From positions 48,519-112,518 of the IMG/VR virus record IMGVR_UViG_2863283106_000001: a DNA stretch of 64,000 bases; one strand, written 5' to 3'. The position numbers and the translations under genes were made by a program. Source of the DNA: a virus. Lineage: Duplodnaviria > Caudoviricetes. The notes below the pieces were generated by a model. That model saw only the letters and a program-made list of their open reading frames with translations. It searched no databases and was not told the origin of the DNA. This document shows positions 1-42,139 of the stretch, piece by piece. The first letter of the stretch is position 1. Each line of letters starts with the position of its first letter.

Positions 1-3000
1 GGATCTGCAGGAGTATTTCCCGCTTCCCCATGTGCCGGATGTGGTCGCCCGGGTCCGGGGGCAGCGGGGGCAGCGCGGGCAACCGGTCGCGCAGGGTGCG
101 GGCGATCGACGTCTCGTCGCCATCGTCGTCACTGGTGGCGGCGGGTTCGGAGCTGTCACCACCGTTACCGGTACTGCCAGCATCGGTGTTGTCGCTGCTG
201 TCGTTGTCGTCCTGCCCACCGGTCGGCTCGGGGCGGATCTGATTGAGGGTTTCCTGAACCTCCTGCCGCGGGATGCGGACCGCACCCCCCTGCTGCGGCG
301 GGACGAATTGGCCGCTGTTCAGGGCCGCGTCCAGTTCCTCGGGGCTGGCCACGTCCAGGCGCGGCTGGTCCTGCCCGTTGCGGCGCACGACACGGCTTGC
401 GGTGATCGGCGCGGTGCGGCCGTCCTCCGTGCGGACGCGCAGCTCCACGCCGTCGATCGCGGAGACGGTCCCCGCGAGGACGCTCTCCCCGTCCTCAGAC
501 CAGAAGGTGACGCGGTCGCCAGCCTGGAAGTCGCTGATCTTCCAGTCCCGGGTGTAGTCGCCGTCAGGCTCCTCCATGGGGTCGTCGCCCCGGGTGGCGT
601 CCATGACCCACCCCAGGGACCCCATGTCGAGGACGTCCGTCGCGCGGGTGACCGCGACGTACGCCAGGCGCAGCTCCTCGTCTCCGGGGATGGTGTCCCA
701 GTCGATACCTCCCTCGGGTGTCTCCTTCGGGGTGAAGAAGTCACTGGCGATGCGGACGCGCTCGGACTCCAAGCCCTTGGCCTTGTGGGCGGTCGAGACG
801 AGGAGATCGTGCGGGGCGGCCTGGTCGACGACCTGCCCGCCGCTGCTGCTGGGCGGGGCGGTGTACCGGTCGGCGATGTACTGCTCGACCTTCTGCAGGA
901 TCCGGGCGCGCTCGTCCTCGGGGACGTAATCGCCCTTCCTCGGCGGCGGGTACCCCCACCGCTTGCTGACGCCGTCCCAGCCGAAGCCCTGGCGCTTGAG
1001 CCATTCCTTCGTGGTCTCGAAGTTGCTGTCGCCGAAAGCGAGCTTGACCCACATGTGCTCGCCGTCGTCTTCCACCAGCGGCCGCGGCATGCGCACCGCG
1101 TTCAGGAGCGCCTCGAGGTCTTCGCTGTGGCGCTCCATCAGCTTGAACATGCTGTCGAGCTGCTTGAGGTTCTTGTCGCCCGCGACCTCTTCGCGGATGT
1201 CTTCCCAGGCCATGCCGTTGAACTGGGCCAGGTCCTGGTGCTTGGTGCGCTTGCCGTCCCGGAGCGCCTCGGCTGCTTCCAGGAACTTCCGCAGGTCGTT
1301 GAGGCCTCCGGAGACGGCAACCCTCCGACCGGCCTGTAGTCCTTCCACGGCGCCGAGAACGACGCCGGCGTTGGTGCGGGCGATGAGCATGGTTTCGTCG
1401 CCCGGGTTGATCTCCCCGATGTGGGAGTTCTTGCGGTCCCAGCCCTTGAGGCGCATCCGGGAGCCGACCAGCCGCAGGAACCGGTTACCGGCGTCGGCGA
1501 CAGCGTCACCGAAGCGGAACGTCTGGGTGAGGGTGGCCGTGGCGTCTGCGGGGAGCCGCCCCAGGGCGTCCGTGGCGCCCCGGAAGCCGTAGATGGCCTG
1601 GTTGGAGTCACCGACCGCGACGACCTGGATGCCGGCGGCGCGGATGTTGCGGACGATGCCCTCCATGACCGGGTTCACGTCCTGCGCTTCGTCCCAGAAC
1701 AGAACATCGGTGTCCGGCACCCTGCGGGACAGTGCCCACATCTTGACGGGGTGGTCGAACGACAGGGGCAGGTCGCGGTCCTTGTTCTTCGCCTTCGGGT
1801 CGGTGAGGTTGGCCCACATCTGCTCGGCGAGCGGCTTGACCGCCGCGAACACGGCCGCCCGGTTGCGGAGCTCCTCGGGCAGGTGGTGCTCGGCGAAGTC
1901 GTCGTCGTCGGACTTGACCCACGCGGAGAGCAGTTCGTTGGCGTAGTGTGCGGCCCGGCGCGGGGACAGCGAGTCGCCGCCGGCCTGGATCGGCTCGTAC
2001 CAGCGCATGCGGTCGGCGAGCTGCTGATCGTTGAGGCGCGGCCACTTCAACCGCTCGAGCAGGTCCTTGTCGACCATGCTGTTCGCGTACGCGTTGGCCG
2101 TGGTCGGGGTGAGATTCTTCCCGTATTCGCCGCGCTGCTGCGACTCGATCGCCTCATCGGCCACGGACCGGTTGAACGCCAGGTACAGGATCCGCTTGTT
2201 CGGCATGCGCCGGGACAGCATCTTGAGCGTCGTGGACTTGCCGGTGCCAGCGAGCGCCATGACACGCATGTCCAGGCCGCGGCGGGCGGCGCCCTCGATG
2301 ATGACCCGCTGCTCGTCGGTGGGCGGGTACGCCTCGCCGGCGGACGCCTGGGCCTCGATCCGCTCCCAGTCGGCGTCCGAGTAGCCTCCGGGCTTCGCGG
2401 GCGGCAGCTCGTCCACGCTGGAAACGGCGCCGCGGGCCTCGTCCTGGTTCAGGCCGTACCCGCCGACGCGGTCGAGGAGGATGCTGCCGCGGGACGGCTC
2501 GACCAGCTTGCCGTCCTTGTCGTACTCCGGTTCCCGCTCCCAGCGGTCGGCTTCCTCCCGCTGCAGCGCCCACAGCCGGCGCTCAGCGCGCAGCCGGTAC
2601 GCCAGTTCCAGCGGGTCGGTGGACTCCTCCAGGGCGCGGGTGACGTCCTCCAGGCCGTCGACCTCGTTCTCGATCTCCTCGGCGCTCATGTCGGCCGGTT
2701 CGCGGTCGCCGATCGGGTCGGTGCTGCCCGCCTCGCCCTCCGGCTGCGGGGCTGGCGGCTGGTTCACAGTGCCCGCGGCGGGGGTGTCGCTCTCCGGGGT
2801 CTCCGGAGCGCTGTTCTCCGGCGCCTCGGGCGCGTCCGTGGCCGGGGCGTCACCTTCGGGGGCCTCCGGCGCGTCCGTGTCCGGCACCTCGGGCGCGGCC
2901 TCGTCCGGGTACAGCACCCGCACCTCGACATCGGACGGGAGCAGGTGCTCCTTGCCGTCTTCGTCGACGACCAGGACGCGACCGCGACCGGTGAGCACGG

Positions 3001-6000
3001 GCTTCCGCGCCACGGTGCGCGCGCGGCCTCCGCTGTCCAGGAACCGGTCCCCGGACTCCAGGTCCATGGGCGCGCGAAGCTGTGCCTCCCGGAGGTTGGT
3101 GGTGTCGCGTCCCTCGGCGTCCGCGAACATGTCGGGGGTGCCGAACTCGTCGGCGGCCCGGTCGTCGGGGTTGTTCAGGTCCGCGGCCCTGTTCGGCCCG
3201 GTGTTGGCCGGCTGGTCGACGTCGAACAGGCCGCCCGGCTCCTCCACGGGCTGCTTCGGCTTCGGCTTCGGTTCCTGCTTCGGCTTGCGGCCGGCGCGGC
3301 GGGCCTCCTCCGCCTCGAGGACCTGCATGCGGGTGCGGTCGGCGCCAGACAGCTCCCCGGCCATGTCCCGCTCCATCAGGGCGACGATCTCTTCGCGGAT
3401 CTCCGGGTCCGTCATGGTGGACGGGGCCTTGGAGCCTTCCGGGCGTATCGCGTCGAGCTGTTCGGACACCTCGTCGGGCGACATGCTGACGGTGCCGTCA
3501 CCATCACCGCCGTCACCACTGCCGTCGGCGTCATCGGTGCCGTCGGCGTCATCGGTGCCGTCGGCGTCATCGGTGCCGTCGGCGTCCGGCGCCTGCGTGT
3601 CCTTCTCTCTCTGCGCGCGGCGTTCCCGCAGTTCAGCCGCAGCCTGGTCAACGCGCTTGGTGTAGGTGTTGTACGCCCGAACCTCATCCGGGTCGGACTC
3701 CAGGCCCTCGCCGCCCGCCATCGTCCACGCCCACTCGAGGAGAGCGCGGTGGACCTCGACCGGCCCGGTCACCCTGAGCGTGCCGTTGCGGCCCTTCTTG
3801 GCCTCCTTGAGGGCCTTCCGGGTGTCCGGGTCCTCCATCGCCGCGGTCTCTTCCGTGCTGAGGAAGTCGGCGAGGGCCTCCGGCATGGTCAGGGTGATGA
3901 AGTCCTCGGGCTTGTCCCACGCGTAGCGCAGTGGCTCATCCGCCGGCTCCGAGTTGTTGCGGTTGTTGTCGCTCTCGCGGCGCGCGAGTTCGGCCTCGAC
4001 GTCGGTCAGGCGCTGCTTACGGATCTTGGTGATCTCGTCGGTCTCGTATGACGGGCGAGCGCTGGCGAGCTCAGCCCGCTCGGCATTGAGCTGCTCGGTG
4101 TCGAGATCGGCGACCGGCGGCCGCGCCTGCAGTTCCTGCGCGCGCTGCTGTGCCTGTGCCGCGGTCTCCTTCTTCCGCCTGGCCTCCCGGATCGCTCGGG
4201 CGTCGGCTTCGAACCGGTCGGCGTTGGCGTCGAGGCGGTCATCGAGCTGCAGCAGTGCCCGCTGCAGGTCTTGGTCGAGACTCTCGGTGTCCAGGCCCTC
4301 GAGGGCGGCAAGAGCGCCACGCATCGCGTCCGCGTTCTGCTGGTAGCCCTCGGGGCCCTTCGGGGCGTCCGTAACGTTCTGCATGTGCTGGGCCAGGGCG
4401 CGGAACTCCTCCGGCGCCCCGTCCGGCCACTGCCGCTCGGCGAGCTCGTTGACCTTGCCCCAGTCGCTGATGACATCCCTGGCCGCGACCCTGGCATCAC
4501 CAACGGCGGGATGCGCCTGCATACGGGCACCGCTGTCGCGCTGCACGTCTTCCAGACGCCGGCGGGACCTGGGGACGACGGACAGCATGTCGCCGGGGCG
4601 CGCGCCGAACTGATCGATCTCCTCGCGGCCGCCGAGGCTGCGGGTGGTGAAGGTGCGGCCGCCCTCGTACCGGTCCACGCGGGTGACGACGTGCCCGAAC
4701 ATGCCACGTGCCACGACGTCACCAACGCGCACACGGTCGGCGCGGACTTCCTCGGGGGTGAAACCGTCGGTGTTCCCGGACACCTGCACCTGCGTCGGCA
4801 TCCGCAGAACGCGGGCGGTGTCGCCAGACACGATCACCTTGCCGTCCGGGCCCGTCAGCGTGACGTCCACCAGGGGCGCGCCGGTCGTTCCCGGGCCGGG
4901 CGAGTAGGTCGAGGCGATAGTGCCCTCGACGGTGACCGTTCCCGGCTTGGGCATGCTGCGGGTGCTGTCCGGCCACTCGATGTCACGGCCGTTGATGGTG
5001 ACGGTGACGCGGTCGCCGTGCTTGAGGCTGTCGCGGCTGACCGTCTCTGGGGTGTCGCTGCTGGACGCGTCGGTGTTTCCTTCGCCGGTGCCCGCAGCCG
5101 GGTCGTTCTGCGTTCCGGGAGCGTTCTCGTTCTGGCCAGGCTGGTTCTGTGCGCGCTTGTTGGCCTGGGAAGCGTCAGCGTCTGCCTGGGCTTTGGCGAT
5201 GGCCGCCTTGCCCGTGCCCTCGGTGTGGGACGTGTAGCTTCCGGGAGTGCTCCAGTCGAGCGGCTGCCCGTCATCACCGCGCACGGCCTCGAGGTCGCGG
5301 GCCGCCGCCATGCCCGAAGGCTTTGAAGCGAAGCCGTGAGCGACCAGCAGGGACGTGCCGGTGTGGTGAAGGTCCCACACGTTTCCTCGCCGGACGAGGA
5401 CGAAGTGCCCGGCGGGGGAGAGCTGGGCGCGGGGGAGCTTGCGGGCGGCGGTCTCTCCGTTCTTCGCCTGGATCCTGCGGGAGCGTTCGCTGTCGTCTCC
5501 TTCTCGAACCGGGTCGGGTCCGTTCTCCCAGTGCTTGCGGACAGCGTTGATGGTGGCGAAGCGGCGCTCACCGCCTGGAGCGTCGGTCTTCGGCTTCTTG
5601 GGTGCTGTGGTCTTCTTCGCCGTGGGCCGGGGGGTGGTGTCGAACTCTGTACGGGCCCGGGTGATGGCGGCCTGGATGTTCTCGCCCTTGGTGGAGCGCC
5701 AGGAGCCGGCGGCCCGGTCGAGGTCGGGGTTGGAGAAGTCGAACCCGCCGGGTGTCGCGGTGTCGGCGGTGGTCTGGGCGAGGTGGTCGGCGAACCGGGA
5801 GGCTTCCTGCGGGGAGTCGAAGTCGCCGGCGGCGTCCATGCGCTGACCGGTGCCGGTGGCCGTCAGGTACCAGCGGCCGCTGGAGTCGTCGCGGAGGATT
5901 GCCAGGCCGCCGGTGCGGTTGGTCACCAGGTCGTCGTCTTCGGCGACGGACCGCAGGAACCGGTCCATGTCCGGCCCTGTGTCGGGTCGTGCGGCGAGCT

Positions 6001-6601
6001 GGTGGAAGTGCTGGCGGACGGCTGCGACGTCCTTGAATCGGGAGCCTTTCTCGTGCCGCTTGTTCGGCAGGGCGTCGGTGTTGAGGGGGTGTCGGCCGTC
6101 GGCCGGCTCGTCCTCGTCGTCATCGTCGTCCGGGCCGTCGCCGTCATCGTCGCCGATGGGGCGGCCCTGGTCGTCGACGTCGTGCGGGTCGTTCGGGGTG
6201 TCCGGGTCGCCGTCGTCGTCCCGGGCCAGGCCGTTGCCGCGGCGCGGGTCCTTGCGGCGCTTCTCGTCCTCCGCCGCGACCTTGTCCTGGTCCTCGGTGG
6301 GCGCGGTGCCGTCGGGGCGGGTGACCATTGACACCCACTTGGCGCTGGTGGTGTGTCGGCGGCCGCGGAATTCGTTCGGGCCGCTCTGGTCCTGGACGAG
6401 GATGCGGTCATGCGGGAGTGCTCGGACGACGCGCGCGAGCTTGCCGCCCCACAGGCGGACAGTGCCGCCGGTCTCGATGAACCTGCCCTTGCTGTCGCGC
6501 GGGTGCAGGGCGGGGTTCCACTTACGGCGGGCGGCCTTGACCTCGAGGGCGTCACTCAGGGCCTGCAACTCAGCGTGCGCAGCAGCGGGGCGATTCAGCA
6601 T
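1..6601 (-). CDS. Giant polyvalent protein (>2200 aa, 3' end outside window) with N-terminal HPRDxxGRF motif and SF1/UvrD-like helicase domain (~640-2330)
   Basis: Hand-translated at both ends and in the helicase region: MLNRPAAAHAELQALSDALEVKAARRKWNPALHPRDSKGRF...; Walker A ALAGTGKST (2231-2257), DEAQD (~1679-1693), GDSNQAIYGFRGA, STAHKAKGLE, YVAVTRA. Frame is still open at position 1, which explains its absence from the ORF track. The long + strand ORFs 32-6331 all lie in the antisense frame. Confidence 0.9.
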   Translation of the reverse strand, partial: MLNRPAAAHAELQALSDALEVKAARRKWNPALHPRDSKGRFIETGGTVRLWGGKLARVVRALPHDRILVQDQSGPNEFRGRRHTTSAKWVSMVTRPDGTAPTEDQDKVAAEDEKRRKDPRRGNGLARDDDGDPDTPNDPHDVDDQGRPIGDDDGDGPDDDDDEDEPADGRHPLNTDALPNKRHEKGSRFKDVAAVRQHFHQLAARPDTGPDMDRFLRSVAEDDDLVTNRTGGLAILRDDSSGRWYLTATGTGQRMDAAGDFDSPQEASRFADHLAQTTADTATPGGFDFSNPDLDRAAGSWRSTKGENIQAAITRARTEFDTTPRPTAKKTTAPKKPKTDAPGGERRFATINAVRKHWENGPDPVREGDDSERSRRIQAKNGETAARKLPRAQLSPAGHFVLVRRGNVWDLHHTGTSLLVAHGFASKPSGMAAARDLEAVRGDDGQPLDWSTPGSYTSHTEGTGKAAIAKAQADADASQANKRAQNQPGQNENAPGTQNDPAAGTGEGNTDASSSDTPETVSRDSLKHGDRVTVTINGRDIEWPDSTRSMPKPGTVTVEGTIASTYSPGPGTTGAPLVDVTLTGPDGKVIVSGDTARVLRMPTQVQVSGNTDGFTPEEVRADRVRVGDVVARGMFGHVVTRVDRYEGGRTFTTRSLGGREEIDQFGARPGDMLSVVPRSRRRLEDVQRDSGARMQAHPAVGDARVAARDVISDWGKVNELAERQWPDGAPEEFRALAQHMQNVTDAPKGPEGYQQNADAMRGALAALEGLDTESLDQDLQRALLQLDDRLDANADRFEADARAIREARRKKETAAQAQQRAQELQARPPVADLDTEQLNAERAELASARPSYETDEITKIRKQRLTDVEAELARRESDNNRNNSEPADEPLRYAWDKPEDFITLTMPEALADFLSTEETAAMEDPDTRKALKEAKKGRNGTLRVTGPVEVHRALLEWAWTMAGGEGLESDPDEVRAYNTYTKRVDQAAAELRERRAQREKDTQAPDADGTDDADGTDDADGTDDADGSGDGGDGDGTVSMSPDEVSEQLDAIRPEGSKAPSTMTDPEIREEIVALMERDMAGELSGADRTRMQVLEAEEARRAGRKPKQEPKPKPKQPVEEPGGLFDVDQPANTGPNRAADLNNPDDRAADEFGTPDMFADAEGRDTTNLREAQLRAPMDLESGDRFLDSGGRARTVARKPVLTGRGRVLVVDEDGKEHLLPSDVEVRVLYPDEAAPEVPDTDAPEAPEGDAPATDAPEAPENSAPETPESDTPAAGTVNQPPAPQPEGEAGSTDPIGDREPADMSAEEIENEVDGLEDVTRALEESTDPLELAYRLRAERRLWALQREEADRWEREPEYDKDGKLVEPSRGSILLDRVGGYGLNQDEARGAVSSVDELPPAKPGGYSDADWERIEAQASAGEAYPPTDEQRVIIEGAARRGLDMRVMALAGTGKSTTLKMLSRRMPNKRILYLAFNRSVADEAIESQQRGEYGKNLTPTTANAYANSMVDKDLLERLKWPRLNDQQLADRMRWYEPIQAGGDSLSPRRAAHYANELLSAWVKSDDDDFAEHHLPEELRNRAAVFAAVKPLAEQMWANLTDPKAKNKDRDLPLSFDHPVKMWALSRRVPDTDVLFWDEAQDVNPVMEGIVRNIRAAGIQVVAVGDSNQAIYGFRGATDALGRLPADATATLTQTFRFGDAVADAGNRFLRLVGSRMRLKGWDRKNSHIGEINPGDETMLIARTNAGVVLGAVEGLQAGRRVAVSGGLNDLRKFLEAAEALRDGKRTKHQDLAQFNGMAWEDIREEVAGDKNLKQLDSMFKLMERHSEDLEALLNAVRMPRPLVEDDGEHMWVKLAFGDSNFETTKEWLKRQGFGWDGVSKRWGYPPPRKGDYVPEDERARILQKVEQYIADRYTAPPSSSGGQVVDQAAPHDLLVSTAHKAKGLESERVRIASDFFTPKETPEGGIDWDTIPGDEELRLAYVAVTRATDVLDMGSLGWVMDATRGDDPMEEPDGDYTRDWKISDFQAGDRVTFWSEDGESVLAGTVSAIDGVELRVRTEDGRTAPITASRVVRRNGQDQPRLDVASPEELDAALNSGQFVPPQQGGAVRIPRQEVQETLNQIRPEPTGGQDDNDSSDNTDAGSTGNGGDSSEPAATSDDDGDETSIARTLRDRLPALPPLPPDPGDHIRHMGKREILLQI
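3521..3586. repeat. 18-bp tandem repeat (GCCGTCGGCGTCATCGGT) x ~3.5 encoding an acidic DADGTD linker
   Basis: Directly visible tandem repeat inside the giant ORF. Confidence 0.9.
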
Positions 6602-6608
6602 GCCGCGG

Positions 6609-6639
6609 ACCATGCACAGTGCAGGTGGTTAGCGTCGCG
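6609..6639 (-). promoter_or_regulatory. CGCGAC-class promoter (CGCGAC-N19-CATGGT, 7 nt before ATG; leaderless)
   Basis: Motif recurs 9 times with fixed spacing upstream of genes. Confidence 0.7.
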
Positions 6640-29018: not shown

Positions 29019-30815
29019 TCAGTTCAGCAGACCGCGGCGGCGGGGCGGGTTGATCGGCTCCGGTTCGTAGGGGGCCAGGAGGATCGCCTCGGCCCGGTCG
29101 GGGGATTTCATGCCGCGGCCCTTCATCTGCTTCTTCGACTCGACGACGGAGTACCCGCCGGCGTTCGACAGGAGCTTCGGCGTGGAGAGCTGCGCCGCAG
29201 ACTTCTTGTCGATGCGGTAGCGCAGCCGGCCGCGGCCGGTGGACGGGTCCGGCTGCAGGAGGCTGCGGGTGGCGAGCCACATCTCGTCACGCTTGCGGTA
29301 GGGCCGCATGACGGCGCCCGGGTCGTCCTGGGAGGGGTTCTCGGACACCATCACGCCGACGATCTGCGCCTGGTGCTCGCCGTTCTGCCCCCAGGTCTCG
29401 AGCATGGACACCACGCCGTGGCCGATGCCGTTCTTGTCGACCTTGACGCGGACGGGGTGCGGGGACTTGAGGGCGTCGGCCAGGCGCTGCGCGGCGTGGA
29501 TCTCCTCGAGGACCTTCTTGGCGACCTTGACCTGGTTGTCGTTGGCGGCGCCAGCGGAGGCGTGCCGGTTCTCGATGACGTCGCCGATGGAGCGGGCGAT
29601 GGCGAACTCGTCGCCGCCGTCGGCTGCGACGTCGACGCCGAGGCGGACCCAGGCGCCTTCGCGGACGGTGTGGGTGGCGGTCTCGTCCTCGAGTCCGAGG
29701 TCGCATAGGCGGTGCCAGCCGGGCCCGGTGGGGTCTTCGGTGTTGAGGGCGTCCTCGATCCAGGTGGGCGGGATGACGAGCCCTCCGCCGCCCTTGGGGA
29801 AGCGCGCGTACACCTTGGCGATGACGTACGGGTGATCGGGGCCGTAGGCGCGGATGGTGCGGTCCACCCAGTCCTGGTCCGGCATGTGCCGGGCGAGGGT
29901 GTGCAGGTCGTTCGGGTTGGGCGGGCAGTCCGTGCAGTACGGCACCCGCTCCCCCGTGATCGCGGGGGAGGTGAGGGAGGAGATCGGGATGGTGACGGTG
30001 GTCGGCTCCTCCGGGTCCTCCCCTTCCAGGCACAGCTCCTCGAACCAGGACGCGGGGTCGTCCATGGCGGGGTTGCCGATGGCGAGCATCGCGGCGTGTC
30101 CGCCGGTCAGGAGGTTGTTCGTGCCGTGGCCGATCGCCGGGGCGATACCGCCGGCCTCGTCGACGATGAGCAGGATGTGGGCCATGTGGATGCCCTGCAT
30201 GGCGGCCTCGTCGTTCGCGGGGGCCGAGAAGCCGTACGCGGCGACGAAGTCGTGCCCCTGCGGGGTGGGCATCTTGTACTGGACGGTGTCGCAGTAGCCG
30301 GGCAGTCCGGCCCGGGGCACCACCTTGCGGATGTGGGGCCAGAGCTGCCGCTGCACCTGCCGGAAGCGGGTCGCGGTGGTGATGCACAGCGCGGTGCCGA
30401 CCGGGTAGACGTTGACGAACCAGACGGCGGCGCGCGCGGCGAGGTGGGTCTTGCCGACGCCGAAGCCGGCCGGGACGGCGACGCGTTTGTGGGTGACGAT
30501 CGCGTCCAGGACGTCGCGCTGCAGGCTCCAGATGGACTCTCCGAGGACGTCCTCGACGAACCCGCTCGGGGTGTCGCGCCATAGGCCGTAGAGGGAGCCG
30601 GTGACGCGTTCGACCTCGCGCATGACGTACGGCCGCTCTCGGGCGGTGATGTCGTGCTTGAAGGCGTGGCGACGGGCGGTGACGGGGGCGCGGAGCAGGA
30701 TGTCGGCGACGTTGGCGGCGTCGCGGGATTTGACGCCGGGCCGGCGGGCGCGCTGCAGCTCCTGGCGTGAGGGGGCCACGCGGAGATGTGAGGTCGGGGG
30801 CTGCGTGCGGGGCAT
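29019..30815 (-). CDS. terL: Phage terminase large subunit
   Basis: Walker A AGFGVGKT, Walker B LLIVDEAG, IGNP coupling motif, nuclease LGVDVA, VDKNGIG, SPDRAEA. Confidence 0.92.
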   Translation of the reverse strand: MPRTQPPTSHLRVAPSRQELQRARRPGVKSRDAANVADILLRAPVTARRHAFKHDITARERPYVMREVERVTGSLYGLWRDTPSGFVEDVLGESIWSLQRDVLDAIVTHKRVAVPAGFGVGKTHLAARAAVWFVNVYPVGTALCITTATRFRQVQRQLWPHIRKVVPRAGLPGYCDTVQYKMPTPQGHDFVAAYGFSAPANDEAAMQGIHMAHILLIVDEAGGIAPAIGHGTNNLLTGGHAAMLAIGNPAMDDPASWFEELCLEGEDPEEPTTVTIPISSLTSPAITGERVPYCTDCPPNPNDLHTLARHMPDQDWVDRTIRAYGPDHPYVIAKVYARFPKGGGGLVIPPTWIEDALNTEDPTGPGWHRLCDLGLEDETATHTVREGAWVRLGVDVAADGGDEFAIARSIGDVIENRHASAGAANDNQVKVAKKVLEEIHAAQRLADALKSPHPVRVKVDKNGIGHGVVSMLETWGQNGEHQAQIVGVMVSENPSQDDPGAVMRPYRKRDEMWLATRSLLQPDPSTGRGRLRYRIDKKSAAQLSTPKLLSNAGGYSVVESKKQMKGRGMKSPDRAEAILLAPYEPEPINPPRRRGLLN

Positions 30816-30822
30816 GGGCCGG

Positions 30823-30853
30823 AAGGTGCAGCGCGGGCGGCGCTTGTGTCGCG
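30823..30853 (-). promoter_or_regulatory. CGCGAC-class promoter of terL (leaderless)
   Basis: CGCGACACAAG...N19...CACCTT, 7 nt, ATG. Confidence 0.7.
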
Positions 30854-31112: not shown

Positions 31113-31847
31113 TTACACCCCCGGCGAGAAGGGCGGCCGCAGCCGGTCCCCGCGGAAGTACCGGAGCGCCTGCCGCTCGTATCGGCGCTGCGCCGGGCCG
31201 TCGTCCGGGTCGGCGGAGGCGAGCCAGGCCGGGGTGATGTCGAGCGTCCAGACGGCGGGCGCGGCCGGGCCCGGAACGACCTTGAGGGGCTTGCCCGCGG
31301 CCACCCACTCATCGAGTGCGTTCTTGGCGACCTGGCGCAGCCGCTCGGTTTCCCCGGCCGTGGGCGTACGGCCGGGCCCCGCGGTGGTCACCTCGCTGAT
31401 GTTGAACGGGAAGTCGTTCAGGTCCGTCGCCGGCAGCCCTAGGGAGACCTCCAGCTTCTTGCCCATCTGCTCGAGGAGGGTGACGACCGCGGCGACGGCG
31501 CTGCAGCCGGGGCAGGGGCAGTCCTCCGGGGCTTCCTCAGCGGCCGTGGCCTCCGGCACGTCCTGGGTGTGCTCCGGCGCGTCCTCGGCGGCCGTGGCGA
31601 CCGGTGCCGTGCCGGTGGTGGCGTCGAGGCTGGCGAGGAGGTCCTGCTCCTCCTCAGCCCGCCGTATCGCCTCCCGGAAGAGGGTCATCTCCGACTCGAC
31701 GACGGCGCGCTCCAGCGCGGTGAGCGCGAACCATGGGGTGGACTCCTCGCCGGTGGCCTGCCGGAGGAAGGCCCGGCGGGTCTCGTAGAAGTGGCGGGTC
31801 AGGTGGGGCGGGAGCGTGGTCCGCGGGGGCGTGGTTCGCGTCGTCAT
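31113..31847 (-). CDS. Hypothetical protein
   Basis: Flanked by 21-bp direct repeats GGGGTGT(A/C)ACAGAATCCGGCC. Confidence 0.65.
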   Translation of the reverse strand: MTTRTTPPRTTLPPHLTRHFYETRRAFLRQATGEESTPWFALTALERAVVESEMTLFREAIRRAEEEQDLLASLDATTGTAPVATAAEDAPEHTQDVPEATAAEEAPEDCPCPGCSAVAAVVTLLEQMGKKLEVSLGLPATDLNDFPFNISEVTTAGPGRTPTAGETERLRQVAKNALDEWVAAGKPLKVVPGPAAPAVWTLDITPAWLASADPDDGPAQRRYERQALRYFRGDRLRPPFSPGV

Positions 31848-31994
31848 GCTGGGGGGAACGCGGGCGGCCGGATTCTGTGACACCCCTGCCCCGGCTGCTG
31901 CTGCGCCTGGTGCTGCTCGATCCCTAGCGAACCCCACCACGCGCCGATGCCTGAGCGAAGCGAAGGCATCGGAACTTACTTGATGGTGGTGCTT

Positions 31995-33930: not shown

Positions 33931-34287
33931 TCATCGGGCGGCCGCCGCGGTCACGGCCCGCACCCCGTCGGGGGTGAGCAGGTACAGGCGGCCGTCGGGG
34001 TAGCGCACCTCGACCTCGCTGGGGAGCTGCGGCCGGCGAACCTTCCACCCGGCCTCGTACGACTCCCGCGGGTGGTCCTCGAACCAGCCGTTACACGTCG
34101 TGCAGACCAGCAGCAGGTTGTGCGCCTGGTTGATCCACGGCTCCCGTGCCCCGCCCATGCCGCGGTTCACCCGGTGGTGGATGGTCAGGTCCTGCCGGGT
34201 CTCGCAGCGCACGCAGGCGCCCCCGTCACGCGCGTATACGAGGGCCTTCACCACGTCGGTGGGACCGGTCCGTCGTCGTGCCTTCAC
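33931..34287 (-). CDS. HNH endonuclease
   Basis: ARDGGACVRC...IHHR...NLLLVCTTCN; CGCGAC-class promoter at 34367-34397. Confidence 0.88.
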   Translation of the reverse strand: MKARRRTGPTDVVKALVYARDGGACVRCETRQDLTIHHRVNRGMGGAREPWINQAHNLLLVCTTCNGWFEDHPRESYEAGWKVRRPQLPSEVEVRYPDGRLYLLTPDGVRAVTAAAAR

Positions 34288-34691: not shown

Positions 34692-35033
34692 CTACCACGG
34701 CCCGTCAAGTCTCGCGTGGAGCTGCGCCCAGGTGGTGACGCCGAGGACGTCCGCGGCGAACCCGGCCAGGGTGTCGGCCCACAGGGCGTACGGCGTGCCG
34801 TGGCGCAGGTACGACAGCACCAGGAGGTCACACAGGACGTCGTCGGCGAGGATCGCGATCGTGGCGCGCCGGTCGGCGGCGGGGGCCGCGGTCAGATGCT
34901 CGAGCTGGTCCAGGCGGGCGAGCCAGTCGGGAACGGCCGAGGTGCGGGTGCACAGGCCTGAGTCGACGACGTTCCGGGCGCGGGCCGCGAGGCCGGCGAT
35001 CCGGGTGCGGGGCGGTGCGGCGGTCGGGAACAT
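34692..35033 (-). CDS. Hypothetical protein (leaderless)
   Basis: ATG 8 nt after TACGGT of a CGCGAC-class promoter. Confidence 0.65.
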   Translation of the reverse strand: MFPTAAPPRTRIAGLAARARNVVDSGLCTRTSAVPDWLARLDQLEHLTAAPAADRRATIAILADDVLCDLLVLSYLRHGTPYALWADTLAGFAADVLGVTTWAQLHARLDGPW

Positions 35034-35041
35034 GCCCGCGG

Positions 35042-35111
35042 ACCGTAGGCACGGCCACGGCTTGCGTCGCGCAGCGAGGACGCGACGTTAAGAGGCCCTG
35101 CAGCCGATGGT
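35042..35111. promoter_or_regulatory. Back-to-back divergent CGCGAC-class promoters
   Basis: Minus: CGCGAC(35071-35066)-N18-TACGGT; plus: CGCGAC(35081-35086)-N19-GATGGT. Confidence 0.68.
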
Positions 35112-35159: not shown

Positions 35160-35681
35160 GTGTCCCGCCTGTTCGGCAGCCTCGCGGCCCTTCTCTACAT
35201 CGGCACCATCGTCTCTGCGAACTGGGCCACTGCCCACTTCGGTTTCCTGTCGGTCGGCTTCGGCCTGTCCGCGACGGCGGGGACGTTCCTCGCCGGCGGC
35301 GCGCTGCTCGCCCGCAACCTCGTCCAGGACGCGTACGGGCGCACCACTGCCCTGGTGCTGATGACGGTCGGTACCTGCCTGTCGGCGTTCACCGCTCCGG
35401 CCGCCCTCGTGGTGGCCTCCGCCGCGGCGTTCGCGTTCTCCGAGCTCGCCGACATGGCCGTCTACACGCCGCTGCGCCGTTCCTACTGGGCCCGCGCGAT
35501 CCTGCCCGCGTGCCTGGTCGGCGCGCTCGTCGACACCGTGCTGTTCCTCGCCATCGCCGGGTTCCCGATCTGGTCGGCGGTGCCGGGCCAGATGGTCGGC
35601 AAGGCCTGGGCGGTGTTCCTGCCGGTCGCCGCGGTGACCGCCTTCCGGGCGGCCCGGAAGGTACGGACGGCGCGGCTGTGA
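35160..35681 (+). CDS. VUT/YhhQ-family queuosine-precursor (preQ0/preQ1) transporter
   Basis: ANW, RNLVQDAYG, ASAAAFAFSELADMAVYTPLR, VDTVLFLAIA, GQMVGK. Confidence 0.85.
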   Translation: MSRLFGSLAALLYIGTIVSANWATAHFGFLSVGFGLSATAGTFLAGGALLARNLVQDAYGRTTALVLMTVGTCLSAFTAPAALVVASAAAFAFSELADMAVYTPLRRSYWARAILPACLVGALVDTVLFLAIAGFPIWSAVPGQMVGKAWAVFLPVAAVTAFRAARKVRTARL

Positions 35682-36962: not shown

Positions 36963-37784
36963 TCAGCCGACTGCAGGCTTCGCCACCAGGTCGCACGACT
37001 CGAACAGCTCGAACCACTCCTCCGGCTCGCCGTCCTCGTCCGCCAGGGCGACCAGACGGGAACCGCCGTACACGGACTCGGCAAGGAAGTTCATCGTGGC
37101 GCGCATGTCGGGGTCGGCGATCCGGTCCGCGCCGACGGCGACCGCGACGTACTGGTCCAGCCCGGCCATGGCGTCAGGGTTGGTGTTCCACACGGCGAAC
37201 GCCATGACGCGCTGCGGGTCCTCACCCCACCAGGCACGCCGCCCCAGGTCGAGCCGGCCGGGCAGCAACGCCTGATCGACGAACCGGGCCAGGATCCGCC
37301 AGACACTGTCCGAGTGGTGCCGGTACTGGGCGAACGACACGGCCACCCGCGGAACGTCCCCGTACGGGCGGGGACAAGACACCAGGGCTGTCCACACCAG
37401 GAGCACGGCCGCTGCTGTGTCGTGGTCTGGGCGCGGGATGCGGGCGGCGATCCGGCGGGCGTACGGGTCCGCCACGGCGCCCAGGACGGCGCGCTGCTCG
37501 CTGGTGAGGGCCAGGCCGAGAACGTCCTGGGCGAACCTGGCGGGGGTGTCGTGCCACAGCTCGTAGGCGCTGCCGGTGTGCAGGTCCAGGGCGATCATCA
37601 CGTCCAGGACCGCGGCGTCCTCGAGGGCGGAGACGTGCGTGAGCCGCTCGTCGACCGGCATGTTCAGCAGTCGGTGCGCGAGCTCCACGGACTGCGGGAC
37701 CGGCTGGACGATCCGGTGCGGGTGGTTTCGGCGCCAGGCCGTGGCGGCGAGCGTGGCGTACCGGGTGGGCGGGATGTACGTCAT
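36963..37784 (-). CDS. Catalytically degenerate paralog of the terminase ATPase domain
   Basis: Aligns by eye with the TerL N-terminal half (TGSAYELWHDTPARFAQDVLG vs TGSLYGLWRDTPSGFVEDVLG); Walker A/B lost; no nuclease domain. Confidence 0.75.
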   Translation of the reverse strand: MTYIPPTRYATLAATAWRRNHPHRIVQPVPQSVELAHRLLNMPVDERLTHVSALEDAAVLDVMIALDLHTGSAYELWHDTPARFAQDVLGLALTSEQRAVLGAVADPYARRIAARIPRPDHDTAAAVLLVWTALVSCPRPYGDVPRVAVSFAQYRHHSDSVWRILARFVDQALLPGRLDLGRRAWWGEDPQRVMAFAVWNTNPDAMAGLDQYVAVAVGADRIADPDMRATMNFLAESVYGGSRLVALADEDGEPEEWFELFESCDLVAKPAVG

Positions 37785-37792
37785 GGGCGCGG

Positions 37793-37822
37793 ACCGTAGG
37801 GTCCCCGAGCGCTTGCGTCGCG
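37793..37822 (-). promoter_or_regulatory. CGCGAC-class promoter (leaderless)
   Basis: CGCGACGCAAG...N18...TACGGT, 8 nt, ATG. Confidence 0.7.
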
Positions 37823-40665: not shown

Positions 40666-41988
40666 TCAGGCGGCCGGGGTGTAGTCGTCGGTGCTGTGGA
40701 CCAGTTCATTCATGCGGTAGAGCTGGCAGAGGTAGTCAGTGGCCAGCGTCTCTCCGTCGACGTTGAAGAACTGGGCGAGCAGCCGCGCTGCCATGAGCGG
40801 GGGGACGACGTCGGCGAGCTGCTGGAACACGCTCGTGCGGGAGCCTTGCGAGGGGTAGGAGGCGCGGAAGCCGACGAGGAGTGCGGCTTCGTTCTGGGTG
40901 AGGCGCAGGCCGTCAGAGACTCGCTTCCAGGTGCGGGCCTTGCCGGTGAGGCAGTTGGAGGGGCGATCGGCGGAGAACTCGTTGCCGCCCTTGGGGCGGC
41001 CGGTCTTCGGGTCGATGCCGCGCACGCCACGGGTGTTGATCTTCTCGCCCTCCTTCCAGCCAAGGGCCTGCGCCATCGTGGTCTGGGGGACGTTCTCGGT
41101 GGGCGTGGGCAGGTACGACAGGCGGCGGGAGGCGAGGAAGAACACCCGCTCGCGGCGAGAGGCGAGCCCGAACTGGGAGGCTTCGAGGATGCCGTGGGTG
41201 GTCCAGTACCACTCTCCCTCTTCCTGGCCGCCGCGCAGCTCTAGGCGGATGTCGTCGAGGATCTGCTGCGGCAGTCGGCTGGACTGCTCCATTGCGATGA
41301 ACTCCAGCGGCGCGCCCGCTGCCTGCATGCCGAACGCCCAGAACAGGAGTTCCGCCATGAGGCCGATGCGGGGGTCGGTGAGCGGGGCGAGTTGGGCGCG
41401 CAGTTCGTCCCAGGTGACGCCGGAGCGCGGGGCGTAGCCGTCGTGGTAGCCGAGTTCGTCGCAGGTGTCGCAGCCTTCGCACCAGTCATCCAGCTCGTTA
41501 CCGGGAAGGAATCCGCCCGCCTCGGAGGTCTGGGCGAGCACGCGGCACAGGGTGTTGATGTTGGCCTGGTCCTGCCCGGAGTGCTTCCCGGCAGGGGAGA
41601 AGGAGGGGCACGGCGGGGAGACGATCAGGCCGCGGACGTGGCGCAGGGCGTAGTGCTCGGGGTCCAGGGTGGTGATGTCGGCGCAGATGCGGAAGTGCCC
41701 GGCGGCGCGGGCGGTGGCGCACGCGTCCTTGGAGATGTCGATGCCGACGGCGTCCACGGCGACGCCGAGAACCTTCGCGATGCCCTCGGACCAGCCCCCC
41801 GGGCCGGCGAACAGCTCCACCACGCGGATCGGGTCGCCGGGCAGCGGGTCGAGCAGCCAGCGGCCGGGGAAGGGGTCGGCGGCCGCGTCCAGGACGGCGA
41901 GGACCTTCGGGGGGATGGGCAGACCGGCCTTGCGGGCGAGGGTGGCGACGTGGACGGCGGTTGCGACCGCGGGGGGCAGGGTCCGCAT
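40666..41988 (-). CDS. DNA (cytosine-5) methyltransferase
   Basis: ELFAGPGG (I), SPPCPSFS (IV), MEQ (VI variant), SRRERVF (VIII), QQLADVVPP (X); no cognate restriction gene seen. Confidence 0.9.
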   Translation of the reverse strand: MRTLPPAVATAVHVATLARKAGLPIPPKVLAVLDAAADPFPGRWLLDPLPGDPIRVVELFAGPGGWSEGIAKVLGVAVDAVGIDISKDACATARAAGHFRICADITTLDPEHYALRHVRGLIVSPPCPSFSPAGKHSGQDQANINTLCRVLAQTSEAGGFLPGNELDDWCEGCDTCDELGYHDGYAPRSGVTWDELRAQLAPLTDPRIGLMAELLFWAFGMQAAGAPLEFIAMEQSSRLPQQILDDIRLELRGGQEEGEWYWTTHGILEASQFGLASRRERVFFLASRRLSYLPTPTENVPQTTMAQALGWKEGEKINTRGVRGIDPKTGRPKGGNEFSADRPSNCLTGKARTWKRVSDGLRLTQNEAALLVGFRASYPSQGSRTSVFQQLADVVPPLMAARLLAQFFNVDGETLATDYLCQLYRMNELVHSTDDYTPAA

Positions 41989-42062
41989 CTGGTGTTCCTC
42001 TCTTCGTGGTCCGCGCCGGTGGTGCTCTCCACCGACACCACGAATAGTACACCCAGGTAAAT
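41989..42062 (-). promoter_or_regulatory. ATTTACCTGGGTGTACTATT promoter + AGAGCA leader hairpin
   Basis: GTCGGTGG-AGAGCA-CCACCGGC then CCACGAAGAGAGGA. Confidence 0.78.
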
Positions 42063-42139
42063 CTCCTGTCCCTGGAACAGCGGAAACGCGCACTCCGATC
42101 GCCTAGGGTGCGCGTTTCTGCTGGTGGTTCGGCTGACAG

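What the first reader, a model, noticed from the sequence alone, without database searches (positions are those of the whole stretch)
36963..37784. Catalytically dead copy of the element's own terminase ATPase domain (decoy or dominant-negative)
Seen: the 273-aa protein aligns by eye along the N-terminal half of TerL (29019-30815): LAHRLLNMPV vs VADILLRAPV; TGSAYELWHDTPARFAQDVLG vs TGSLYGLWRDTPSGFVEDVLG; QRAVLGAV vs QRDVLDAI; ALLPG vs AGLPG; DAMAGL vs AAMQGI; EPEEWFE vs DPASWFE. Walker A (AGFGVGKT) has become IPRPDHDT, Walker B (LIVDEA) has become AVGAD, and the nuclease domain is absent. The ORF is intact and carries the same CGCGAC promoter class as terL. Established: terminase ATPase domains are sensed by Avs/STAND defence proteins, and satellite elements interfere with packaging. 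Inference: a maintained pseudo-terminase acting as an Avs decoy, a packaging regulator, or a poison subunit against competing phages.
Basis: partly seen in the sequence, partly recalled or inferred. Interest (0 to 1): 0.85.

Follow-up and report, generated by a model that had tools for sequence, protein, structure and literature searches.

The report
Dead terminase-ATPase paralogue in Streptomyces phage
A 125-kb Streptomyces phage keeps, near its DNA-packaging motor gene, a selected copy of the motor's ATP-binding half that has lost its ATP-handling residues, so it probably works by binding an unknown partner.

Summary
The 273-aa ORF (36963-37784, minus strand) is a true paralogue of the N-terminal ATPase half of the element's own large terminase, TerL (29019-30815). 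Evidence: BLASTP E 3e-9, profile-profile E 6.5e-23, and Foldseek best hits to T4 gp17, P74-26 and HK97 terminase ATPase domains. [quoted passage not shown]

The gene is under purifying selection (omega 0.115; neutrality rejected, 2dlnL 524). It evolves about three times faster than TerL and was deleted in one relative.

The element is a relative of Streptomyces phage Gilgamesh (gp146), not a satellite.

New here:
- It belongs to a family of dead TerL paralogues.
- A second lineage (314-359 aa elsewhere) survives in this window only as a 113-aa N-terminal stub (34692-35033).
- All three genes carry the exact motif CGCGACRCAAGC 26 nt before their ATG.

The function is untested. I favour an accessory binder acting through the N-terminal module it shares with TerL. 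Decoy and poison-subunit readings remain open.

The closest published analogue is T4 vs.8. Unchecked notes from this scan report dead terminase copies on other phage DNA (T4-like and P1-like).

The parts
36963..37784 (-). pTerL1: 273-aa catalytically dead, nuclease-less paralogue of the TerL ATPase domain (orthologue of Streptomyces phage Gilgamesh gp146)
   Evidence: ORF; BLASTP to TerL E 3e-9; hhalign E 6.5e-23; Foldseek to TerL ATPase domains; 67.5% identity to Gilgamesh gp146.
37470..37784 (-). N-terminal helical module (about residues 1-105), shared with TerL, pTerL2 and the 113-aa stub. It contains the near-invariant motif Y-x-L-W-x-D-T-P-x-x-F-x-x-D-V-L-G (nt 37515-37577).
   Evidence: AF2 helices H8-20, H30-40, H44-53, H56-70, H81-87, H95-105; motif table; coordinates.
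37407..37451 (-). Former Walker A position (IAARIPRPDHDTAAA). It has no GK[ST] but is itself conserved as AARVPxPDNH in the family.
   Evidence: A113, R115 and P117 are invariant in A1.
37110..37151 (-). Former Walker B strand (YVAVAVGADRIADP). TerL D-E is replaced by V-G here, and by A-D in most homologues.
37811..37822 (-). Promoter-class motif CGCGACGCAAGC, ending 26 nt before the ATG. A -10-like TACGGT lies at 37793-37798, which suggests a leaderless or very short-leader mRNA.
   Evidence: The promoter function itself is inferred, not shown.
34692..35033 (-). 113-aa 'mini' paralogue: the N-terminal helical module only. It is orthologous (58-60% identity) to the N-terminus of the 314-359-aa dead paralogues (pTerL2) found on other Gilgamesh-like elements.
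35060..35071 (-). The same promoter-class motif CGCGACGCAAGC, 26 nt before the ATG of the 113-aa gene.
29019..30815 (-). TerL, the element's real large terminase (598 aa). Walker A AGFGVGKT is at 30447-30470, Walker B LIVDEA at 30153-30170, and the nuclease half is present.
   Evidence: phrog_2 E 3.7e-20; 74% identity to Gilgamesh gp1 and 36-40% to Arthrobacter and Microbacterium phage TerLs; coordinates.
30842..30853 (-). Promoter-class motif CGCGACACAAGC, 26 nt before the terL ATG.
33931..34287 (-). HNH endonuclease gene lying between the 113-aa paralogue and terL (context only).
   Evidence: phrog_740 E 1.3e-30.

Best explanation
Shown: the 273-aa protein (pTerL1) is a folded paralogue of the ATPase half of this phage's own large terminase. 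It is kept by selection, has no nuclease domain, and has lost its Walker A P-loop and Walker B acidic pair. The glutamine at the position where TerL has an invariant Q (the adenine-binding Q motif by my recall) is not conserved across the family. It therefore very probably cannot bind or hydrolyse ATP.

Inferred: it acts by binding. It is made together with TerL from the same phage promoter class. That class also precedes a virion protein gene and the giant gene, so expression is probably late.

My preferred mechanism is also inferred. pTerL1, its sister lineage pTerL2 and the 113-aa stub all keep the roughly 100-residue N-terminal helical module of TerL, including the near-invariant YxLWxDTPxGFxxDVLG motif. 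They would engage whatever partner that module contacts in TerL: a packaging-initiation factor, TerL itself, or the portal. This would make them non-essential modulators or competitors of terminase assembly or initiation, not motor subunits.

The faster evolution, the patchy presence and the one deletion mark it as an accessory gene rather than a core packaging gene.

The confidence of 0.4 applies to this specific mechanism. That it is a selected, non-catalytic TerL paralogue I hold at about 0.9.
For: - Homology and fold.
- Motif loss: GK[ST] and DE are each present in 0 of 23 family members. All 8 TerL rows keep K[ST] and DE.
- Selection: ML codon omega is 0.115 for pTerL1 (9 sequences), 0.16 for the stub (8) and 0.037 for TerL (7). 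Likelihood-ratio tests against omega=1 give 2dlnL of 524, 151 and 1741.
- Conserved order: pTerL1, then the stub about 2 kb on, then terL about 6-8.5 kb on. terL was found in all 6 elements whose sequence reaches that far (L008, L009, L010, L011, L012 and Gilgamesh L001/L002).
- Shared promoter: the window's 3 exact CGCGACRCAAGC sites are the 3 paralogue genes, each 26 nt before the ATG. The class has 6 exact and 14 one-mismatch-or-better sites in the 112.5-kb record, 12 of the 14 on the minus strand. It also precedes a 338-aa minor-tail/head protein gene (phrog_25212, E 3.4e-61), and a two-mismatch variant precedes the giant 5726-aa gene.
- N-terminal module: it is shared by TerL, pTerL1, pTerL2 and the stub. 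The stub matches TerL at E 8e-7 and pTerL1 at E 1e-8 and P0037 at 58-60% identity.
- The stub has nothing but this module and is well conserved (79% mean column identity, 7 sequences).
- Single origin: dead paralogues form one clade against all TerLs (100/98) and share A-D in place of the Walker B D-E.
Against: - No binding partner was tested.
- pTerL1 diverges much faster than TerL. TerL residues 17-280 are 92-95% identical among five elements whose pTerL1 copies are 65-89% identical (10 pairs). That is not what one expects of a tight partner of a conserved TerL surface.
- The gene lies among accessory genes, including a VUT-family transporter and a C5 DNA methylase. This fits an anti-defence role as well.
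- The N-terminal motif may be partly a structural element of the TerL fold rather than a partner-binding surface.
- The paralogue clade could owe something to long-branch attraction. The pTerL1 stem length is 1.25.
- Promoter function and late timing are inferred from sequence only.
Confidence: 0.4

Rival explanations
1. Immune decoy or sponge. The dead ATPase-like core mimics TerL and occupies host sensors that recognise terminase ATPase domains (Avs1-3-type STAND proteins, Upx) without triggering them, or it otherwise counters a defence.
For: - Terminase ATPase domains are direct targets of Avs2, Avs3 and Upx. [quoted passage not shown]
- pTerL1 evolves about three times faster than TerL, is patchily retained, and lies near DNA-modification-type genes.
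- Co-expression with terL from the same promoter class would suit a decoy.
Against: - The 113-aa paralogue has no ATPase core yet is conserved and co-regulated. The function shared by the family therefore seems to sit in the N-terminal module, which is outside the ATPase core.
- In the EcAvs2 structure the interface includes the terminase-bound ATP. pTerL1 has no P-loop.
- vs.8 activates rather than blocks Avs2 and keeps its Walker motifs.
- No sliding window shows dN/dS above 1.
- There is no match to PADLOC models. My searches found no paper describing a terminase decoy.
Confidence: 0.2
2. Poison subunit or exclusion factor. The dead copy enters or caps the terminase assemblies of competing related phages, or damps the element's own terminase until the right time, acting as a dominant negative.
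For: - It has the TerL ATPase fold and keeps segments such as AMxGL, RLVALG and EEWF that align with TerL.
- Paralogues are confined to Gilgamesh-like elements. Many of these sit in Streptomyces genomes as contigs of about 122-135 kb or integrated copies, where exclusion of relatives could pay.
Against: - It shares the terL promoter motif and spacing. It would therefore be made together with its own TerL rather than as a lysogeny-expressed exclusion gene.
- At 29% identity to its own TerL the split is old, with no sign of matching to a particular TerL allele. TerL identity and pTerL1 identity are uncoupled.
- No oligomer test was possible.
Confidence: 0.1
3. TerL-derived non-catalytic subunit of the terminase holoenzyme. 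It would substitute for the small terminase, which has not been identified in these phages, by recognising the packaging start site or recruiting TerL.
For: - No small terminase is annotated in Gilgamesh in the 126 kb of annotation I read (positions 1-79999 and 110000-129136).
- The ORFs I scanned near terL have no TerS family match.
- Position 1 of the Gilgamesh record is the terL start, which is consistent with a circularly permuted, headful-packaged genome (inference).
- Dead paralogues serving as structural partners of active ATPases are common in other systems (general knowledge).
Against: - pTerL1 was half-deleted in one relative whose TerL is 93% identical to the window's.
- The stub is missing from 2 of 9 elements.
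- pTerL1 evolves faster than TerL.
- Neither Pfam nor PHROGs gives pTerL1 a TerS match, and the module has no PDB fold match.
- I did not scan every ORF of the element. A weak match to an Arthrobacter phage TerS exists elsewhere in the record (E 2.8e-4).
Confidence: 0.1
4. Decaying pseudogene or annotation artefact with no function.
For: All tested catalytic motifs are lost, and one lineage carries a deletion remnant.
Against: - Neutral evolution is rejected (omega 0.115, 2dlnL 524).
- 49 columns are invariant and mean column identity is 73% across 23 sequences of 48-81% identity to the query.
- Length and start codon are conserved.
- The AF2 fold is confident.
Confidence: 0.02

Closest known systems
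The element's own large terminase, and TerL ATPase domains generally (T4 gp17 2o0j/3cpe, P74-26 4znj, HK97 6z6d, Sf6 4ife)
   Same: Homologous sequence (E 3e-9 pairwise, 6.5e-23 profile-profile) and the same RecA-like terminase ATPase fold, preceded by the same N-terminal helical module.
   Different: No Walker A lysine or P-loop, no Walker B D-E, a non-conserved Q-motif glutamine, and no lid or zinc-ribbon-like segment. It has no nuclease domain, is 273 aa against 598 aa, and evolves about three times faster.
T4 vs.8, a stand-alone TerL-ATPase-like protein (PMC13601566, Nat Commun 2026; passages read, supplements closed)
   Same: A separate phage gene encoding only an ATPase-like domain homologous to that phage's own terminase. 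Its function is unknown, and it has been discussed in connection with terminase-sensing immunity.
   Different: vs.8 is reported to keep Walker A and B; pTerL1 has lost both. The phage lineage differs (T4-like coliphage versus a Streptomyces siphovirus), as does the TerL clade. I held no vs.8 sequence, so direct relatedness was not tested.
Streptomyces phage Gilgamesh gp146 (MN234216; annotated 'hypothetical protein')
   Same: Orthologue: 67.5% identity over 99% of the length, in the same position relative to terL.
   Different: None in kind. The GenBank record does not note the terminase relationship.
pTerL2: the 314-359-aa dead TerL paralogues of other Gilgamesh-like elements (P0037, P0051-P0054, P0036, P0044, P0034)
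   Same: Same clade of dead paralogues (100/98), the same A-D replacement of the Walker B D-E, and the same N-terminal module.
   Different: pTerL2 keeps the lid and CxxC...H segment and a partial P-loop (G-K-[ST] in 2 of 10 rows, A-K-T in 5 of 10). In this window it survives only as the 113-aa stub.
Packaging-interference proteins of satellites (SaPI Ppi, PICI Rpp) - recalled, not searched
   Same: Small non-enzymatic proteins that act by binding a terminase component. This is the kind of mechanism I favour.
   Different: They are encoded by satellites, target the helper's small terminase, and to my knowledge are not terminase paralogues. No sequence comparison was made here.

Membership tests
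Large terminase subunit (functional TerL) | Sequence or profile homology to the TerL ATPase domain | tested here: met
   BLASTP E 3e-9; hhalign probability 99.5, E 6.5e-23; phmmer hits to 546-593-aa TerLs. There is no Pfam hit, but the element's true TerL has none either.
Large terminase subunit (functional TerL) | Terminase-type RecA-like ATPase fold | tested here: met
   Foldseek PDB top hits are T4 gp17 and P74-26 TerL ATPase domains (E 4.4e-5 to 9.3e-5; TMq 0.54 for gp17, 0.46 for P74-26). The BFVD top hit is a large terminase (E 3e-9, TMq 0.57). DEAD-box RecA1 domains score only a little lower.
Large terminase subunit (functional TerL) | Walker A P-loop with G-K-[ST] | tested here: not met
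   0 of 23 family members; 8 of 8 TerL rows keep K-[ST].
Large terminase subunit (functional TerL) | Walker B hhhhD-E with the catalytic glutamate | tested here: not met
   0 of 23. The query has V-G and most members have A-D at the D-E positions.
Large terminase subunit (functional TerL) | Adenine-binding glutamine (Q motif) before Walker A; the motif name and role are recalled | tested here: not met
   The glutamine is invariant in the TerL alignment A2 (Q99) and present in 8 of 8 TerL rows. At the aligned position pTerL1 has Q in 5 of 14 rows and L, H or D in the others; the query itself has Q97.
Large terminase subunit (functional TerL) | C-terminal RNase H-like nuclease domain | tested here: not met
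   The protein ends at about TerL residue 280 of 598.
Stand-alone TerL-ATPase-like paralogues of the T4 vs.8 type | A separate gene encoding only an ATPase-like domain homologous to the phage's own TerL | tested here: met
Stand-alone TerL-ATPase-like paralogues of the T4 vs.8 type | Conserved Walker A and B motifs (as reported for vs.8) | tested here: not met
   against the statement in PMC13601566.
Stand-alone TerL-ATPase-like paralogues of the T4 vs.8 type | Activation of, or binding to, Avs2 | not testable with these tools
   Needs co-expression or binding assays.
Small terminase subunit (TerS) | Match to a TerS family, or a TerS-like fold | tested here: not met
   No Pfam, PHROG or NCBIfam TerS match for pTerL1 or the stub. 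The model of the N-terminal module has no PDB fold match (best E 1.7).
Known defence-system proteins (PADLOC models) | Match to a PADLOC model | tested here: not met
   No hits for pTerL1, the stub or P0037 at E up to 0.1. No library of anti-defence proteins was available.

The most novel reading that the evidence does not exclude
These phages have turned duplicated, inactivated copies of their packaging ATPase into a small family of binding proteins. The family comprises a full dead domain, a dead domain with lid, and an N-terminal module alone, all expressed with terL. These proteins either supply the missing small-terminase or initiation function, or shield TerL from terminase-sensing immunity. 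Either way this would be a class of terminase pseudo-subunits not described in print.
Probability: 0.25. Interest if true: 0.85.

Novelty: new variant of a known kind. Interest (0 to 1): 0.6.

Why it matters
Stand-alone terminase-ATPase look-alikes have just entered the literature. T4 vs.8 triggers Avs2, and its authors call its function 'an interesting open question' (PMC13601566).

This is a clear case in which such a copy has lost its tested nucleotide-handling motifs (Walker A, Walker B) yet is kept by selection. It has diversified into at least two lineages plus a domain-only stub, and it is wired to the same promoter motif as terL. ATP hydrolysis therefore cannot be the point of these proteins, which leaves binding.

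The orthologue, gp146 of Streptomyces phage Gilgamesh, sits in an isolated phage that grows on the laboratory strain S. lividans. Deletion, pull-down and co-expression tests are therefore straightforward.

If the partner is the packaging machinery, this reveals a new layer of terminase regulation. If it is a terminase sensor, it would be, as far as my searches show, the first described terminase mimic used against immunity.

Unchecked notes from this scan suggest that similar dead copies arose independently in T4-like and P1-like phages, so the answer may generalise.

Tried and rejected
Family libraries gave nothing for the 273-aa protein. Pfam had no hit. PHROGs gave only phrog_14127 at E 0.07. 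NCBIfam, PADLOC and a profile search of PDB sequences had no hits.

Expression: no RNA holder was listed for window:28500-38400, and read laying was not used.

A viral-contig scan with P0037 found nothing. A metagenome scan with alignment A4 returned only a 1.1-kb fragment. I could therefore not see whether elements with a full-length pTerL2 also carry pTerL1. The only hint is that P0018 and P0044 both come from JGI contigs of 21,940 bp.

Small terminase: the ORF upstream of terL (31113-31847) had no Pfam or PHROG hit and no usable Atlas hit. Arthrobacter phage Edmundo TerS gave only a weak tblastn match far away in the record (E 2.8e-4), which I did not follow up.

Fold of the N-terminal module: the model of the 113-aa protein (pLDDT 73.9) has no significant PDB match (best E 1.7).

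Nei-Gojobori dN/dS (medians 0.53 for pTerL1, 0.22 for TerL, 0.58 for the stub) is inflated because GC3 of about 0.9 compresses dS. I therefore rely on the ML codon model with F3X4 frequencies. The first run failed to parse omega, which I fixed.

Readings considered and rejected:
- Split terminase (ATPase and nuclease on separate genes): a full-length TerL is present and this copy lacks the motifs.
- Satellite-encoded interference: the element is a complete Gilgamesh-like phage.
- Recent gene conversion as the cause of the shared N-terminal motif: the DNA differs at synonymous sites.

Literature: I found no paper on phage Gilgamesh and none on inactive terminase paralogues. 'Decoy' alongside 'terminase' and 'Avs' occurred only in the mass-spectrometry sense in the two papers I opened.

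Tree: I used 14 of the 23 members of A1. I left out P0042 (intein-bearing TerL), the fragments P0039, P0041 and P0047, and P0051.
Full report
WHAT IS THERE

The window is the last 64 kb of a 112.5-kb IMG/VR provirus record with 71.6% G+C. The ORF at 36963-37784 on the minus strand is intact and encodes 273 aa. Its composition is coding-type (GC3 0.91, GC2 0.52).

It matches phrog_2 'terminase large subunit' at E 3.7e-20. It is 74% identical to gp1 (TerL) of Streptomyces phage Gilgamesh and 36-40% identical to the TerLs of Arthrobacter and Microbacterium phages.

The 273-aa protein is 67.5% identical to Gilgamesh gp146, which is annotated only as 'hypothetical protein'. Gilgamesh is a 129-kb phage isolated on S. 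lividans. Its annotation includes a portal-MuF fusion, a major capsid protein, a tape measure protein, two tyrosine integrases, an FtsK-like translocase and a ParB-like protein. The element in the window is therefore a complete Gilgamesh-like temperate phage, not a satellite.

- BLASTP of the 273-aa protein against TerL gives 29% identity over 210 residues, E 3e-9.
- A profile of 23 homologues against a profile of 9 TerLs gives hhalign probability 99.5, E 6.5e-23 over 249 columns. Residues 16-273 align collinearly with TerL 17-280.
- A filter-free phmmer search of 1.84 billion representatives returns only 26 proteins, among them full-length TerLs of 546-593 aa.
- The AF2 model is confident (pLDDT 87.9, pTM 0.89). 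Its best PDB matches are the ATPase domains of T4 gp17 and P74-26 TerL, followed by the HK97 and Sf6 terminases (E 4.4e-5 to 3.2e-4, TMq 0.43-0.54). Its best BFVD matches are large terminases (E 3e-9, TMq 0.57). DEAD-box RecA1 domains score slightly lower, as expected for this fold class.
- TerL's Walker A (AGFGVGKT) aligns with IPRPDHDT, and its Walker B (LIVDEA) aligns with AVGAD.
- Across 23 near-full-length homologues, G-K-[ST] is present in 0 of 23 and D-E in 0 of 23. All 8 TerL rows in my motif table keep both.
- The glutamine at the position I take to be the adenine-binding Q motif (role recalled) is invariant in the TerL alignment (Q99). It is present in only 5 of 14 pTerL1 rows.
- The former P-loop is itself conserved as AARVPxPDNH (A113, R115 and P117 invariant). 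This suggests the site has been re-used rather than merely degraded.

IT IS SELECTED, BUT LOOSELY

The word-indexed search found 27 homologues, all from Streptomyces or unnamed assemblies. They are 48-81% identical to the query, and many come from contigs of about 113-135 kb. I aligned 23 and dropped 4 partial sequences (P0024-P0027). The alignment has 49 invariant columns and 73% mean column identity.

I recovered DNA for 9 pTerL1 genes, 7 terL genes and 8 copies of the 113-aa gene. Simple Nei-Gojobori ratios are inflated by the extreme GC3 (medians 0.53, 0.22 and 0.58).

A maximum-likelihood codon model with F3X4 frequencies gives omega of 0.115 for pTerL1, 0.16 for the 113-aa gene and 0.037 for TerL. 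Fixing omega at 1 costs 2dlnL of 524, 151 and 1741 respectively. Neutral decay is therefore rejected.

The protein is nonetheless clearly less constrained than TerL. Among five elements, TerL residues 17-280 are 92-95% identical while their pTerL1 copies are 65-89% identical (10 pairs). No 25-codon window exceeds dN/dS of 1.

In one relative (L011, on a 231-kb contig) TerL is 93% identical to the window's. There, a deletion of about 740 bp has removed the promoter and the first ~147 codons of pTerL1. The gene is thus dispensable, at least for carriage of the element.

A FAMILY, NOT A SINGLE GENE

I confirmed that it matches TerL (E 8e-7) and pTerL1 (E 1e-8) over the N-terminal module only.

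The exhaustive search also revealed more distant relatives of 288-346 aa (P0031, P0034, P0036, P0037, P0038, P0044). A second word-indexed search and a cluster look-up added P0051-P0054 (up to 359 aa). Where named, they are Streptomyces proteins from contigs of about 122-135 kb.

These proteins carry the whole TerL ATPase domain, including the lid and a CxxC...H segment, but not the nuclease. In 10 such rows the Walker B D-E is present in none. G-K-[ST] survives in 2, A-K-T in 5, and the lysine is gone in 3.

The 113-aa protein is 58-60% identical to residues 6-111 of P0037. It is therefore the N-terminal remnant of this second lineage (pTerL2). It is conserved as a short protein in 7 of 9 elements examined and was not found in L006 and L012.

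In a tree of 35 sequences, all dead paralogues form one clade against all TerLs (ultrafast bootstrap/SH-aLRT 100/98). The stem leading to pTerL1 is long (1.25). Both lineages share A-D where TerL has D-E. This points to a single ancient inactivation followed by duplication, although long-branch attraction cannot be excluded.

In a sample of 401 Streptomyces species genomes, 18 matched P0037, mostly through related TerLs. Co-occurrence of TerL with the paralogues was seen in five (G001, G003, G170, G018, G005). The own record holds exactly three TerL-like places.

REGULATION AND CONTEXT

The 12-mer CGCGACRCAAGC occurs exactly three times in the window, and each copy ends 26 nt before the ATG of terL, the 113-aa gene or pTerL1. 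With one mismatch allowed there are 7 sites against 2.78 expected, and 1 of 100 shuffles reached 7.

In the whole record the motif has 6 exact and 14 one-mismatch-or-better sites, 12 of the 14 on the minus strand. Each is followed at a fixed distance by a -10-like element, here TACGGT, only a few bases from the ATG. The same class precedes a 338-aa minor-tail/head protein gene (phrog_25212, E 3.4e-61). A two-mismatch variant precedes the 5726-aa giant gene.

I read this as a phage promoter class, probably late, that gives leaderless or short-leader mRNAs and co-expresses the three paralogues. This is inference from sequence; no RNA data were available.

The gene order is conserved across Gilgamesh and the related loci: pTerL1, then the stub after about 2 kb, then HNH, then terL after about 6-8.5 kb. 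Neighbours include a VUT-family transporter on the other strand, a C5 DNA methylase and an HNH endonuclease.

No small terminase is annotated in the parts of the Gilgamesh record I read (positions 1-79999 and 110000-129136), and I found none near terL.

HOW IT PROBABLY WORKS

Without a P-loop or acidic pair, the protein cannot be an ATPase, so it must work by binding.

The strongest clue is the nested series. TerL has the module, an active core and the nuclease. pTerL2 has the module, a dead core and the lid. pTerL1 has the module and a dead core. The stub has the module alone.

What all four keep is the roughly 100-residue helical N-terminal module, with the near-invariant YxLWxDTPxGFxxDVLG motif. 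The stub, which has nothing else, is the best conserved of the accessory copies. The motif differs at synonymous sites between paralogues, so it is maintained at the protein level and not by recent gene conversion.

I therefore favour a role through the partner of TerL's N-terminal module. That would mean modulating or competing in terminase assembly or packaging initiation, as an accessory factor (confidence 0.4).

Three rivals are listed with their tests:
- Immune decoy or sponge (0.2).
- Poison or exclusion subunit (0.1).
- TerL-derived substitute for the unidentified small terminase (0.1).

Neutral decay is essentially excluded. The remaining probability goes to functions I have not thought of.

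COMPARISON WITH WHAT IS KNOWN

The protein fails four of the six defining TerL features tested: Walker A, Walker B, the Q motif and the nuclease domain. It meets two: homology and fold. It is a pseudo-enzyme paralogue, not a terminase.

The closest published analogue is T4 vs.8, a stand-alone TerL-ATPase-like protein. It is reported to keep its Walker motifs and to be toxic with EcAvs2, and its function is open (PMC13601566, passages read; supplements not seen).

My searches found no paper describing a catalytically dead terminase paralogue or a terminase decoy.

Notes from this scan (unchecked by me) report dead terminase-ATPase copies in T4-like and P1-like phages. The phenomenon therefore seems recurrent and convergent. 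This Streptomyces family, with two lineages plus a domain-only stub under the terL-type promoter, is a new variant of it.

VERDICT

Novelty: new variant of a known kind. Interest: 0.6.

Noticed in passing
window 34692-35033 (-): A 113-aa protein consisting only of the TerL-type N-terminal helical module. It is the truncated orthologue of the 314-359-aa dead paralogues (pTerL2) found on other Gilgamesh-like elements, is conserved in 7 of 9 elements, and has the same promoter motif and spacing as terL.
   Followed up: yes
window 30842-30853, 35060-35071, 37811-37822 and other minus-strand sites; whole record: A phage promoter-like class: CGCGACRCAAGC, about 13 nt, a -10-like CAnnnTCCGC or TACGGTCCGCG, then an ATG a few bases later (leaderless) or a short leader with a ribosome-binding site. 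There are 6 exact and 14 one-mismatch-or-better sites in 112.5 kb, 12 of the 14 on the minus strand. It precedes terL and a minor-tail/head gene, and a two-mismatch variant precedes the giant gene.
   Followed up: partly
L011 9816-10001 (a Streptomyces genome contig of 231 kb): A deletion of about 740 bp removes the promoter and the N-terminal half of pTerL1 in an element whose TerL is 93% identical to the window's. This is a natural knock-out.
   Followed up: partly
protein P0042 (997 aa): A related TerL carries a large insertion just before the Walker B strand. The insertion begins with Cys and ends just before the LLLVVDEAGG strand, so it looks like an intein in the terminase ATPase.
   Followed up: no
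window 2-6628 (-), continuing upstream in G000 to 55131: A giant ORF of 5726 aa preceded by a variant of the same promoter class. Gilgamesh has a 4624-aa 'hypothetical protein' (gp48) at the corresponding place, after the portal-MuF gene.
   Followed up: no
G002:C30 (128,403-bp contig); several other contigs of 122-135 kb: On this contig terL lies at one end and pTerL1 and the stub at the other. Many homologues come from contigs the size of the whole element, and Gilgamesh encodes a ParB-like protein. This suggests a circular or circularly permuted extrachromosomal (plasmid-prophage) state, although some copies are chromosomal (for example G018:C1 at 4.04 Mb).
   Followed up: no
window 31113-31940 (-) and Gilgamesh gp155/gp156: No small terminase is annotated or detectable next to terL. 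The ORF directly upstream has no family or Atlas match. The only TerS-like signal is a weak tblastn hit far away (G000 2164-2328, E 2.8e-4).
   Followed up: partly
window 35160-35681 (+), 40666-42093 (-), 33931-34287 (-): A VUT-family transporter (PF02592, E 2.2e-9), a C5 cytosine DNA methylase (PF00145, E 4.8e-20) and an HNH endonuclease (phrog_740, E 1.3e-30) surround the paralogues. This is a DNA-modification and accessory gene neighbourhood.
   Followed up: partly
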